From an uncultured Clostridia bacterium (GTDB taxonomy: Bacteria > Bacillota > Clostridia > TANB77 > CAG-508): a stretch of 64,000 nt of DNA. Shown piece after piece: positions 56,148 to 64,000 of this stretch; position 1 is the first letter of the stretch, and each line of letters opens with the position of its first letter. A program made the position numbers and the translations under genes. The notes under the pieces are model-generated. The model searched no databases and was not told where the DNA came from. It saw nothing but the letters and a program-made list of their open reading frames with translations. The stretch covers positions 937 to 64,936 of the forward strand of contig CAKPNJ010000006.1 in NCBI GenBank assembly GCA_934168365.1. Reading direction: 5' to 3'.

Positions 56148-56280
56148 AGCTTGTACCTCTTTATCAAATTTGAAAATGTGCCAAAATTCTCCGTCCCCAA
56201 TGGCACATAAAAAAACATAACATATATATAAATATATATATGCTATGTTTTTTATTTTAGAACTATTTTATTAAATTTTA

Positions 56281-62386: not shown

Positions 62387-62492
62387 CTCTCTTTCATTTT
62401 TACTAGTCTAATTATTATACTACATTTTTCTACAAAAGTGAACCTTTTGCCACAAAAAATATGGTGTAGTTATTTACACCATATTCTAATGT

Positions 62493-63109: not shown

Positions 63110-63568
63110 TCATTTATTTAATAAATATACTCCTAAATTTAAGTAAGTAGCAAATAGTGTCCATATTATATATGGTATTTGAAGTAGCCCTGCTGTTTTA
63201 TTTTTATCATAAAATTTCTTTATCATTATTATTACAAGTACGTCAAGTAATATTATCCATAGGAATGCAAACAGCCTCCATTTAAGTGTAAAAAAGAATA
63301 TTGACCATAGTGCATTTACTGCTAATTGTAGGTAATATATCGTGTTTATTTTTTTGTCTACTAGTTGATTACTTTGTAATATTCCATATGATATTCCCAT
63401 TAAGATGTATAGTATTGTCCATACTATTGGAAATAATATACTTGTTGGCGATAAAAATGGCTTTTGCAAAGTATTGTAATCTATTGAACCCGAAATTATT
63501 AGTCCTACTATTCCTCCCACTATAACTGGTATCAGTATTGACTTGGCATATATTTTAAATTTTGACAT
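63110..63568 (-). CDS. tspO: TspO/MBR-family tryptophan-rich sensory protein
   Basis: 152 aa, five TM helices, with a W-rich layout. Confidence 0.7.
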   Translation of the reverse strand: MSKFKIYAKSILIPVIVGGIVGLIISGSIDYNTLQKPFLSPTSILFPIVWTILYILMGISYGILQSNQLVDKKINTIYYLQLAVNALWSIFFFTLKWRLFAFLWIILLDVLVIIMIKKFYDKNKTAGLLQIPYIIWTLFATYLNLGVYLLNK

Positions 63569-63647
63569 AACTCAAATCCTCCTTTATATATTTTATTTCT
63601 TTTATTCTAAAATATACAAAGATTTCTAGATGAGTTTGGGTGCCAAT

Positions 63648-63724
63648 GGTGCAAATGGGGACGGGGTCAAAAAGCACCTTTTTTTGAAAGAAGGGTGCTT
63701 TTTGACCCCGTCCCCATTTGCACC
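63648..63724. repeat. GC-rich perfect inverted repeat with 31-bp arms and a 15-nt T-rich loop; imperfect extension reaches about 63638-63733
   Basis: Arms ggtgcaaatggggacggggtcaaaaagcacc (63648-63678) and ggtgctttttgaccccgtccccatttgcacc (63694-63724); loop tttttttgaaagaag. Flanking gtgcc / ggcac extend the pairing. Confidence 0.6.
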
Positions 63725-63735
63725 CGAAGGCACTC

Positions 63736-63921
63736 TTATTTTGAGCAATAACGACAAAGTATTGCTTCTAAGCCTATTTCTAAAGATATTAGTCCTATTT
63801 TATAGTTTGCATCTAAGTCTATTAGTACTTCTAATACTTCTCTTAATTCTTGTGTTTCAAAATATCTTGCTTGTGTTTTGTATTTGCTTACTAAAAATAG
63901 CTGATTTGGTTTTAAGTTCAT
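63736..63921 (-). CDS. hypothetical small ORF (61 aa)
   Basis: ORF only, with no recognisable motif. Its 3' end abuts the GC-rich palindrome. Confidence 0.2.
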   Translation of the reverse strand: MNLKPNQLFLVSKYKTQARYFETQELREVLEVLIDLDANYKIGLISLEIGLEAILCRYCSK

Positions 63922-64000
63922 TGCTGTTGCAACATCTTCATTATATTTTTCTGCAATTTTTATAATATATAGTTTTTTAAAATGGTTATATAATGTTATC

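What the first reader, a model, noticed from the sequence alone, without database searches (positions are those of the whole stretch)
63638..63733. Highly GC-rich perfect 31-bp inverted repeat in an AT-rich genome
The arms ggtgcaaatggggacggggtcaaaaagcacc and ggtgctttttgaccccgtccccatttgcacc are exact reverse complements around a 15-nt T-rich loop. Pairing extends imperfectly through gtgcc...ggcac to about 40 bp per arm, and each arm is internally self-complementary at its ends (ggtgc...gcacc). Local GC is far above the window average. It lies between tspO and a 61-aa ORF and has no clean downstream U-tract on the minus strand. Possibilities are an unusually stable terminator or RNA structure, a recombinase or att site, an IS200/IS605-type subterminal hairpin, a protein-binding palindrome, or a remnant of horizontally acquired DNA.
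Basis: seen in the sequence. Interest (0 to 1): 0.55.

Follow-up and report, generated by a model that had tools for sequence, protein, structure and literature searches.

The report
Dispersed GC-rich hairpin repeat, paired copy
The GC-rich palindrome is real, but it is not a one-off: it is a back-to-back pair of a ~33-nt hairpin repeat that is scattered behind genes in a group of AT-rich uncultured gut Clostridia, sits where the neighbouring gene's terminator normally is, and is flipped, halved, decayed or deleted from strain to strain.

Summary
Observation confirmed: perfect 31-nt arms (63648-63678 / 63694-63724), 15-nt spacer, weaker outer pairing to 63638-63733, far beyond chance. Interpretation partly right. 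Each arm is one unit of a dispersed repeat: a stem (GGGTGMYTTT / AAAAAGCACCC), a conserved loop GGGGACGGGGTC, and usually a T-run tail. Exact-core copies occur at 7 sites in one ~29% GC uncultured Clostridia MAG and at fewer sites in two others, plus human-gut metagenome contigs. Units occur solo (9 of 10 co-oriented with the gene ending just upstream) or as inverted dimers like this one. A second subfamily has the same loop with a compensating stem; one copy is in the window at 56178-56206. The "61-aa ORF" is the end of holA; no IS or TnpA lies beyond the window. In conspecific strains the same holA-tspO spacer holds two dimer variants, a solo unit in either orientation, an AT-decayed dimer with inverted spacer, or a deletion. 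A sister species has an ordinary terminator there. Best reading: a REPIN/MITE-like palindromic element with a terminator-like module, reshaped by hairpin-driven inversion and deletion. The mobilising enzyme is unknown; no RAYT or transposase was found in the DNA I could reach. New member of a known kind; moderate interest.

The parts
63638..63733 (.). Whole element: an inverted (tail-to-tail) dimer of two type-I hairpin-repeat units with outer sub-repeats. It lies 2 nt after the holA stop codon and 70 nt before the tspO start codon.
   Evidence: sequence and folds; same slot compared across strains.
63638..63656 (+). Outer sub-repeats of the left unit, GGGTGCCAAT + GGTGCAAAT (family decamer GGGTGMYTTY). 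The GCAAAT variant occurs on both arms here and in none of the other 28 units tabulated.
63657..63668 (+). Conserved 12-nt core GGGGACGGGGTC of the left unit. This core is the loop of a solo unit.
63669..63678 (+). 3' stem of the left unit, AAAAAGCACC.
63679..63693 (+). Spacer TTTTTTTGAAAGAAG, the polar T-run tail of the family. Here the T-run is on the non-transcribed (+) strand, and the spacer is inverted relative to allele E in other strains.
   Evidence: reverse-complement identity 15/17 versus direct 10/17.
63694..63733 (-). Right unit (G-rich strand on the minus, sense strand): GTGCCTTCG + GGTGCAAAT + GGGGACGGGGTC (63704-63715) + AAAAAGCACC. This is the first unit transcribed from holA.
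63736..64000 (-). 3' end of holA (DNA polymerase III delta subunit); the stop codon is at 63736-63738.
63590..63619 (-). Putative tspO promoter, TTGTAT (63614-63619) - N18 - TAAAAT (63590-63595), with RBS AAGGAGG at 63578-63584. It is conserved in every allele, including the deletion allele and the sister species. Inferred from conservation only.
   Evidence: by inspection; it was not called by the consensus scan.
63110..63568 (-). tspO (TspO/MBR family), the downstream gene.
56178..56206 (-). Second family member in the window: a solo type-II unit GTGCCATT-GGGGACGGAG-AATTTTGGCAC in sense orientation. It lies directly after an ordinary AT-rich terminator (about 56209-56250), between a yebC/TACO1-like gene and spoIIIAA.

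Best explanation
The palindrome is one copy, in dimer form, of a dispersed family of small GC-rich hairpin repeats. The family is REP/REPIN-like or MITE-like and occurs in a lineage of ~29% GC uncultured human-gut Clostridia. The basic unit is about 33 nt. It has a 5' stem GGGTGMYTTT (sometimes preceded by one or two extra decamers), a conserved G-rich loop GGGGACGGGGTC, and a 3' stem AAAAAGCACCC. It is usually followed by a T-run and (G/C)AAAT(T)T, so a solo unit is a ready-made intrinsic-terminator-like module. Two units in inverted orientation around a short polar AT-rich core give a dimer. In a dimer the loops and stems of the two units pair with each other to form one very stable hairpin (RNA) or cruciform-prone palindrome (DNA). 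That is the state in the window. The elements sit in the slot directly behind a stop codon, either after or instead of an ordinary terminator. Shown: family membership, unit and dimer anatomy, gene-end location, orientation bias of solo units, and extreme strain-to-strain variability at fixed sites, including exact inversion of loops and spacers, loss of one unit between short direct repeats, AT-decay and deletion. Inferred: (i) the family spreads or is homogenised by transposition or gene conversion, because the GC-rich core stays identical at unrelated loci in an AT-rich genome while individual copies decay; (ii) the in-place rearrangements come from hairpin-templated strand switching and slippage during replication, which would also explain why both arms here share a private variant and are perfectly complementary; (iii) at the RNA level solo units, and dimers with the T-run in the sense strand, terminate or stabilise the upstream transcript. 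The window allele has the T-run on the wrong strand. It probably acts at most as a 3' structural barrier, or as a long double-stranded-RNA target, between holA and the tspO promoter. The enzyme that mobilises the family, if any, is unknown.
For: Family: the 20-mer core finds 10 real sites in three uncultured Clostridia MAGs (7 in CAKOTK01) and 14 sites in gut metagenome contigs, and none in viral contigs. A profile search finds more diverged units and a type-II subfamily with the same loop and a compensating stem, GTGCCAA/TTGGCAC. That subfamily includes window 56178-56206 and a perfect 37-bp dimer in L009 (-68 kcal/mol, z = -16). GGGGACGGRG gives 5 hits in the window against 0.18 expected.

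Context: the flanking genes are housekeeping genes (DivIVA, S18, S10, ThyA, GlmS, ExoIII, NUDIX, spoIIIA operon). Units lie 0-42 nt after a stop codon. Nine of 10 solo units are in sense orientation (p = 0.011). 14 of 30 units are followed by at least 5 T in 8 nt, and in each dimer exactly one arm carries the T-run.

Same slot across strains (TspO >=97% identical): two dimer variants (window, L019); a solo sense unit (10 contigs, L030-L039); a solo flipped unit (L052); an AT-decayed dimer with inverted spacer and a canonical hairpin + T8 (L050, L051, L053, L058); and a deletion (L057). A sister species (TspO 85%) with the same synteny has an ordinary AT-rich hairpin + T8 terminator there.

Inversions: the L008 versus L021 loop matches 15/15 as reverse complement and 4/15 direct, between 100% identical flanks. 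Allele C versus D gives 20/27 against 7/27. The window versus allele E spacer gives 15/17 against 10/17. Solo versus inverted dimer and solo versus direct tandem are seen at two other loci.

Decay: allele E and L062 show G-to-A/T erosion.

Energetics: unit hairpins fold at -7.5 to -14.6 kcal/mol, the window arms at only -8 to -12, and the dimer at -73.
Against: No transposase, RAYT or autonomous partner element was found, and no clean occupied-versus-empty site with target-site duplication was recovered. Transposition is therefore inferred, not shown. Copy number looks modest: about 7 or more exact cores per MAG and 2 sites per 64 kb, far below classical REPs. No expression data exist. The window allele does not meet the canonical terminator rule on the sense strand (2 U in the 8 nt after the stem). 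The conserved part of a solo unit is the loop, which a terminator does not need. Most comparison DNA comes from short-read metagenome assemblies, where inverted repeats can in principle be mis-oriented. That is unlikely here, because the clearest inversion has only 8-nt arms. The L007/L018 spacer inversion is only moderately supported (34/58 versus 27/58).
Confidence: 0.7

Rival explanations
1. A true REPIN in the strict sense: a non-autonomous element mobilised as single-stranded DNA by a single-copy REP-associated tyrosine (HUH/Y1) transposase. That transposase would recognise the hairpin and its conserved G-rich loop, and would be encoded elsewhere in the genome.
For: Inverted doublets that form hairpins, with singlets that look like remnants of doublets (alleles C and D derive from a dimer by loss between short direct repeats). 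The arms co-vary: a private GCAAAT variant is on both arms, and an extra decamer is on both arms in L007 but not in L018. The elements are extragenic, and the core is conserved across two stem types. These match the REPIN description in PMC3116915.
Against: There is no GTAG or CGTC tag at the end of the palindrome (one search gives the family definitions). No Y1-like ORF was found in 417 kb of fetched DNA (the queries were recalled from memory, so this is weak). There are no transposase domains in the genes adjacent to units. Copy number is low. REP families were not reported from Firmicutes in the surveys read.
Confidence: 0.2
2. Simply the holA intrinsic terminator (or a bidirectional terminator) that happens to be unusually long and GC-rich. 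On this view the similarity to other sites reflects a shared terminator design and not mobility.
For: Its position is 2 nt after the stop codon. A sister species has a canonical terminator in the same slot. Allele E and most solo units have a hairpin plus T-run in the sense strand.
Against: An identical 12-nt loop and near-identical stems at 12 or more unrelated loci cannot be convergence. Several units sit directly behind an already complete AT-rich terminator (L006, L009, L007, window site 2). The window allele has no U-tract after the hairpin on the sense strand, and its T7 is on the other strand. Conspecific strains delete the element (L057).
Confidence: 0.08
3. An invertible switch. Recombination between the arms flips the polar core (the T-run), which toggles whether the hairpin terminates sense transcription. 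This would give phase-variable read-through from holA into tspO and from other upstream genes.
For: The polar core is found in both orientations relative to the flanking genes at two loci in closely related strains (window and L019 versus allele E; L007 versus L018). An exact loop flip is seen in L008 versus L021.
Against: The 15-nt spacers and 8-nt arms are too short for known invertases. No recombinase gene is nearby. Ten independent contigs share one fixed solo allele, which argues for slow fixed differences and not rapid switching. No within-sample heterogeneity has been shown.
Confidence: 0.07
4. A palindromic operator or structural binding site for a DNA-binding protein that regulates tspO or organises the chromosome.
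For: It is a perfect palindrome just upstream of the putative tspO promoter. The core contains an interrupted palindrome, GAC-N3-GTC, and phased GGGTGAC-like decamers.
Against: Copies sit behind unrelated housekeeping genes. Orientation, copy number and even presence vary among strains with 97-100% identical TspO, while the promoter-like region stays constant.
Confidence: 0.03

Closest known systems
REP sequences and REPINs (REP doublets forming hairpins) of Proteobacteria, mobilised by RAYTs (PMC3116915; PMC3733652)
   Same: They are short, extragenic, hairpin-forming repeats. They are found as singlets, inverted doublets with a short spacer, and occasional tandems. The doublet folds into one long hairpin. 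The arms co-vary, and singlets look like broken doublets. They are transcribed at gene 3' ends.
   Different: There is no GTAG or CGTC terminal tag. The most conserved part is a 12-nt G-rich loop, not the stem. A T-run terminator tail belongs to the unit. Copy number is low. The host is an AT-rich Clostridia lineage, where such families are not described in the surveys I read. No RAYT has been found so far.
Bacterial MITEs that carry terminator-like hairpins (for example Correia/NEMIS in Neisseria, RUP/BOX in Streptococcus, bcr1 in the Bacillus cereus group; from my own knowledge, plus the MITE review listed)
   Same: The dimers are 85-135 nt, with 32-42-nt terminal inverted repeats around an AT-rich core. 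They are intergenic, variable between strains, and able to affect transcript ends.
   Different: No target-site duplication or parent IS with matching ends was identified. Each terminal repeat is itself a hairpin and also occurs alone in a functional-looking form.
GC clusters of yeast mitochondrial DNA (for example GC42; PMC4478555)
   Same: They are GC-rich palindromic elements dispersed in the intergenic DNA of a very AT-rich genome. Stand-alone and merged forms are found at the same homologous site in different strains. They show rapid turnover, merger and shuffling. The mobilising mechanism is unknown, and they act as recombination hot spots.
   Different: The host is an organelle genome of a eukaryote. 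The sequences are unrelated. GC clusters show short flanking direct repeats (AG/ACT) that are not seen here, and they have no terminator tail.
Hairpin-associated small inversions and quasipalindrome correction by template switching (known from chloroplast non-coding DNA and E. coli mutagenesis; from my own knowledge)
   Same: Exact inversion of a loop or spacer bounded by short inverted repeats. Conversion of imperfect palindromes to perfect ones. Deletion between direct repeats that bracket a hairpin.
   Different: This is a mutational mechanism, not an element family. It explains the in-place dynamics here but not the dispersal to many loci.

Membership tests
REP / REPIN | Short (20-40 nt) imperfect palindrome repeated at many extragenic sites | tested here: met
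   The ~33-nt unit folds at -7.5 to -14.6 kcal/mol. It occurs at 12 or more non-orthologous intergenic sites in the fetched DNA.
REP / REPIN | Inverted doublets with a short spacer that fold into one hairpin; doublets are the conserved form | tested here: met
   Dimers are found in the window, L019, L003, L007/L018, L011, L026 and L009 (type II). Whether doublets are better conserved than singlets could not be tested with so few copies.
REP / REPIN | Unpaired GTAG (or CGTC) tag at one end of the palindrome | tested here: not met
   Unit ends are (A)GGGTG... and ...GCACCC. GACG (the complement of CGTC) occurs only inside the loop (family definitions in PMC3733652).
REP / REPIN | A cognate single-copy RAYT (Y1/HUH transposase) gene flanked by the repeats | not testable with these tools
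   Whole genomes could not be searched. Partial check: no Y1-like ORF in 417 kb of fetched DNA (best E = 0.6; queries recalled from memory), and no transposase domain in 10 unit-adjacent ORFs.
REP / REPIN | Tens to hundreds of copies per genome | tested here: inconclusive
   There are 7 exact-core sites in MAG CAKOTK01 and 3 in CAKOVG01, and 2 sites (3 units) in the 64-kb window. Diverged copies were not counted genome-wide.
MITE (non-autonomous DNA transposon) | Terminal inverted repeats, size 50-500 bp, no coding capacity | tested here: met
   Dimers are 85-135 nt with 31-42-nt inverted ends and an AT-rich core.
MITE (non-autonomous DNA transposon) | Target-site duplication and clean empty sites in relatives | tested here: inconclusive
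   There are no consistent flanking direct repeats by inspection. The only element-free alleles are a larger deletion (L057) and a diverged species with a different terminator (L040-L049).
MITE (non-autonomous DNA transposon) | A parent IS with the same ends in the same genomes | not testable with these tools
   No unit pair brackets a transposase in the fetched loci.
Rho-independent (intrinsic) terminator | GC-rich hairpin immediately followed by a U-tract on the transcribed strand, 3' of a gene | tested here: not met
   For the window allele on the sense (minus) strand, the stem is followed by AUUGGCAC (2 U), and the consensus scan calls nothing here. The feature is met by most solo units, by allele E (hairpin + U8) and by the sister species' ordinary terminator.
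IS200/IS605 subterminal hairpin | Adjacent tnpA and/or tnpB; imperfect hairpins at both IS ends | tested here: not met
   The neighbours are tspO and rubrerythrin on one side, and holA, ruvC, GDE, cofD-like and murB on the other.
Known structured RNA family (Rfam) | Match at or above a family's gathering score | tested here: not met
   There are 0 matches in the whole window at gathering thresholds. The only hits are sub-threshold generic long-hairpin (miRNA-model) matches.

The most novel reading that the evidence does not exclude
The conserved 12-nt G-rich loop, shared by two subfamilies with different compensating stems, is the recognition site of a dedicated enzyme that has not yet been identified. 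This could be a RAYT-like HUH protein or something else. The enzyme would both spread the units and catalyse their in-place flipping. The dimers would then act as invertible, direction-switching terminators: the T-run would sit on the sense or the antisense strand in different strains. This would be the first REPIN-like replicator system in Firmicutes and a new type of very small invertible element.
Probability: 0.12. Interest if true: 0.7.

Novelty: new member of a known kind. Interest (0 to 1): 0.4.

Why it matters
Small palindromic repeats (REPs, REPINs, MITEs) are well studied in Proteobacteria but poorly documented in AT-rich Firmicutes and in uncultured gut bacteria. This family gives a compact natural allelic series at a single locus: dimer, either solo orientation, decayed dimer, deletion, and an ordinary terminator in a sister species. 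That series could be used to test how such hairpins affect termination, mRNA stability and local genome stability. The family also provides strain-level markers, and synteny breakpoints occur at units. For annotation, it warns that a striking GC-rich palindrome in an AT-rich genome is more likely to be a repeat-family member than a unique regulatory site.

Tried and rejected
- **Rfam:** the E-value search gave only generic miRNA-hairpin noise below the gathering scores, and the gathering search of the whole window gave nothing.
- **tRNA or tmRNA nearby** as an integration target: none in the window.
- **IS or TnpA beyond the window end:** rejected, because the orthologous contigs show holA, ruvC, GDE, cofD-like and murB.
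- **Phage, plasmid or viral origin:** no matches.
- **Y1/HUH transposase screen** of all ORFs in 417 kb with recalled IS200, IS608 and RayT sequences: noise only. This is weak because the queries came from memory.
- **Pfam on unit-adjacent unknown ORFs:** no mobile-element domains.
- **Cluster of five diverged units in L020**, examined for an autonomous element: only degraded AAA-ATPase-like and RCC1-like fragments.
- **G-quadruplex idea:** units with two decamers fit G3N7G3N7G4N2G4. The window arms and most solo units have only three G-tracts, so this is not a family feature (by inspection).
- **DNA-uptake-sequence analogy:** rejected on copy number.
- **Target-site duplications:** none consistent.
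- **Window genome itself:** look-ups failed although a 100% identical TspO is listed on an 87-kb contig.
- **More distant TspO relative (P0052):** different synteny and no units.

Full report

Yes. The arm GGTGCAAATGGGGACGGGGTCAAAAAGCACC lies at 63648-63678 on the + strand. Its exact reverse complement lies at 63694-63724, and the two are separated by TTTTTTTGAAAGAAG. Extra outer pairing (gtgcc / ggcac) extends the structure to 63638-63733.

None of 100 dinucleotide-preserving shuffles of the window contains the arm even once. Predicted stabilities are:
- RNA, + strand: -84.5 kcal/mol, z = -14.7
- RNA, - strand: -74.4 kcal/mol, z = -12.0
- single-stranded DNA: -47.3 kcal/mol, z = -11.9

The window is 24-32% GC, and this is its only intergenic stretch with at least 55% GC over 40 nt.

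The '61-aa ORF' is the C-terminal end of holA. Its frame is open to the window edge, and it is a 334-aa DNA_pol3_delta gene in orthologous contigs. The element begins 2 nt after the holA stop codon and ends 70 nt before the tspO start codon. All three features are read on the minus strand.

**2. It is not unique: it is a dimer of a dispersed repeat unit.**

A scan of one genome per species with the 20-mer TGGGGACGGGGTCAAAAAGC returned 10 genuine sites: 7 on five contigs of MAG CAKOTK01, 3 in CAKOVG01 and 1 in CAAECB01. All three are titled 'uncultured Clostridia bacterium' or 'Clostridia bacterium', with 28-32% GC. One further hit, in a cyanobacterium, is a chance match.

A metagenome scan gave 14 more genuine sites, all from contigs of similar composition, several labelled human gut. 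Viral contigs, phage records and plasmid records gave nothing.

- one to three decamers GGGTGMYTTY
- the invariant core GGGGACGGGGTC
- AAAAAGCACC(C)
- usually T4-8 followed by (G/C)AAAT(T)T

The first and last parts of the unit are complementary. A unit is therefore itself a hairpin (-7.5 to -14.6 kcal/mol) with the G-rich 12-mer as its loop.

The reverse complement of a unit has the same stem with a flipped loop. An inverted pair can therefore fold either as two small hairpins or as one long one.

A profile search found a second subfamily with the same loop core and a different, self-complementary stem: GTGCCAAT-GGGGACGGAG-AATTTTGGCAC. One copy is in the window at 56178-56206. Another forms a perfect 37-bp dimer in L009 (-68 kcal/mol, z = -16). 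GGGGACGGRG with one mismatch allowed occurs 5 times in the window against 0.18 expected; two of those five are in coding sequence and are probably unrelated.

**3. Where the units sit.**

The neighbours are ordinary housekeeping genes: DivIVA, ribosomal proteins S18 and S10, an ABC transporter, ThyA, GlmS, exonuclease III, a NUDIX protein, and the spoIIIA operon.

Units lie 0-42 nt after a stop codon. In several cases they sit directly behind an already complete AT-rich terminator (L006, L009, L007, and window site 2).

Nine of ten solo units have the G-rich strand in the sense of the upstream gene (binomial p = 0.011), and these are followed by a T-run. In that form they look like intrinsic terminators. 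In L002, for example, AAAAAGGTGCTTTT-loop-AAAAAGCACTTTTTTT folds with z = -3.4.

In each dimer only one arm is followed by the T-run. The other arm is followed by CAAAT or CAATT. The dimer therefore has a polar AT-rich core, and that core is found in both orientations relative to the flanking genes.

**4. The window's own locus is a natural allelic series.**

Using TspO homologues I fetched the holA-tspO spacer from many assemblies. Strains whose TspO is 97-100% identical carry six different states:
- **A:** the window dimer.
- **B:** L019, a dimer lacking the inner decamer on both arms and with different outer ends, although the flanks are about 98-99% identical.
- **C:** a solo unit in sense orientation, identical in ten contigs from different samples.
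- **D:** a solo unit in the opposite orientation (L052).
- **E:** an AT-decayed dimer (cores GGGACGTGTC / GACCTCGTCC). Its spacer is the reverse complement of the window's, and its first unit plus T8 is a canonical terminator in the sense strand.
- **F:** L057, where only 16 nt remain.

A sister species (TspO 85% identical, same gene order) has no unit. In the same place it has a plain AT-rich hairpin plus T8 fused to the TTGTAT hexamer.

The segment TTGTAT-N18-TAAAAT...AAGGAGG-N7-ATG is conserved in all states. I take it to be the tspO promoter and RBS, which is an inference from conservation only. On that reading, the element occupies the holA terminator slot upstream of the tspO promoter.

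**5. Dynamics.**

Between 100% identical flanks, the 15-nt loop of a type-II unit is exactly inverted in L008 relative to L021 (15/15 as reverse complement, 4/15 direct). Other comparisons point the same way:
- Alleles C and D are related by inversion (20/27 versus 7/27).
- The window and allele E spacers are related by inversion (15/17 versus 10/17).
- The L007 and L018 spacers are probably inverted (34/58 versus 27/58), and L007 has an extra decamer on both arms.
- At two other loci one strain has a solo unit where another has an inverted dimer or a direct tandem (L004 versus L026).
- Synteny breaks exactly at a unit in L005 versus L009.

Alleles C and D can each be derived from a dimer by loss of the DNA between the short direct repeats that the stems provide. 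Individual copies erode towards AT (allele E; L062), yet the core is identical at unrelated loci.

In the window both arms carry GCAAAT, a variant seen in none of the other 28 tabulated units. That variant weakens each arm's own hairpin (-8 to -12 kcal/mol) but leaves the inter-arm pairing perfect (-73 kcal/mol).

Symmetric private changes, exact inversions bounded by short inverted repeats, and deletions between direct repeats are what hairpin-templated strand switching and slippage produce. This mechanism is established knowledge, but I have not tested it here.

**6. What it most likely is and does.**

The best-supported description is a REPIN/MITE-like family of small GC-rich palindromic elements that carry a terminator-like module. 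The window holds a tail-to-tail dimer of it.

Shown: the anatomy, the dispersal, the gene-end location, the orientation bias of solo units, and the strain-level hypervariability.

Inferred: spread or homogenisation by transposition or gene conversion, rearrangement by replication template switching, and an RNA-level role as a terminator or 3' stabiliser for solo units and sense-oriented dimers.

The window allele has its T7 on the non-transcribed strand and only 2 U in the 8 nt after the stem on the sense strand. The consensus scan calls no terminator there. For this copy I expect at most a structural 3' barrier, or a long double-stranded RNA stem that could be processed. This is untested.

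**7. Comparison with known families.**

The closest families are REPs and REPINs. They share inverted doublets that form hairpins, singlets as remnants, co-varying arms and extragenic location (PMC3116915).

Two defining features are not satisfied. There is no GTAG or CGTC end tag (PMC3733652). No RAYT was found either, but that could only be checked in 417 kb of fetched DNA with queries recalled from memory and by Pfam on adjacent ORFs.

The surveys I read list REP families in eight phyla without mentioning Firmicutes, and they note that CGTC-type REPs also lack a dedicated transposase. MITEs match in size and in having terminal inverted repeats, but I found no target-site duplication or parent IS.

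The best analogy by ecology is the GC clusters of yeast mitochondria. These are GC-rich palindromes in an AT-rich genome, with stand-alone and merged forms at the same site in different strains and an unknown mobilisation mechanism (PMC4478555).

Rfam has no family for this element.

**8. Verdict.**

I rate it a new member of a known kind, with moderate interest (0.4). The points of interest are the host lineage, the conserved loop with exchangeable stems, the built-in terminator tail, and the unusually clear allelic series with exact loop and spacer inversions.

The main open question is what mobilises or homogenises the family. The decisive tests are a whole-genome census for a cognate HUH or other enzyme, and read-level checks for within-strain inversion.

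Noticed in passing
window 56178-56206 (minus strand), with an ordinary terminator at about 56209-56250: A second family member sits in the window. It is a solo type-II unit, GTGCCATT-GGGGACGGAG-AATTTTGGCAC, between a yebC/TACO1-like gene and spoIIIAA. It is identical in three other assemblies and AT-decayed in a fourth (L062).
   Followed up: yes
L020 1264-4453 (contig VOFB01001431.1; same species as CAAECB01 locus L001): Five diverged units (GTGTTTTTGGGG(A/C)CGGA..CAAAAA.CA) cluster within about 3.2 kb. The region appears degraded, with only fragments of an AAA-ATPase-like gene and RCC1-repeat ORFs. No transposase is present.
   Followed up: partly
L005 1675-1725 versus L009 6410-6460: The unit and everything downstream of it (thyA) are conserved between MAGs CAKOVG01 and CAKOTK01. 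The upstream DNA is unrelated from the first base of the unit onward, so a synteny breakpoint coincides with the repeat. In L005 the upstream ORF's stop codon lies inside the unit.
   Followed up: partly
L025 (OQWE01014554.1, 1587 nt, 44% GC overall): This short contig carries a dimer whose downstream flank differs from the six other assemblies of that locus, and its composition is much higher in GC. It is either a rearrangement at the element or an assembly chimera joined at the repeat.
   Followed up: no
L050 3682-5235, L051 2201-3754, L057 8183-9736; corresponds to window ~62387-62492: Some conspecific strains carry an extra 517-aa ORF with no Pfam hit between the rubrerythrin gene and the Zn-dependent PLC-like gene. 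It is absent from the window and from L030-L039, so this is an indel polymorphism about 1 kb from the element.
   Followed up: no
L009 1898-2006: A perfect 37-bp head-to-head dimer of type-II units surrounds a ~35-nt AT-rich spacer (-68 kcal/mol). This shows that the window's perfect long palindrome is not exceptional within the family.
   Followed up: partly
window 63110-63568 (TspO) / P0001: A 100% identical TspO (P0001) is listed on three contigs of up to 86,955 nt. The exact-sequence look-up nevertheless returns 'not on record', both for the window protein and for P0001. The window's own genome could therefore not be extended.
   Followed up: yes
window 1-64000: Nearly all long ORFs are on the minus strand, and GC skew is negative throughout apart from near-zero dips at about 28-32 kb and 58-60 kb. 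The window has no tRNA genes and no Rfam hit at gathering threshold. The presence of the spoIIIA operon suggests a spore-forming lineage.
   Followed up: no
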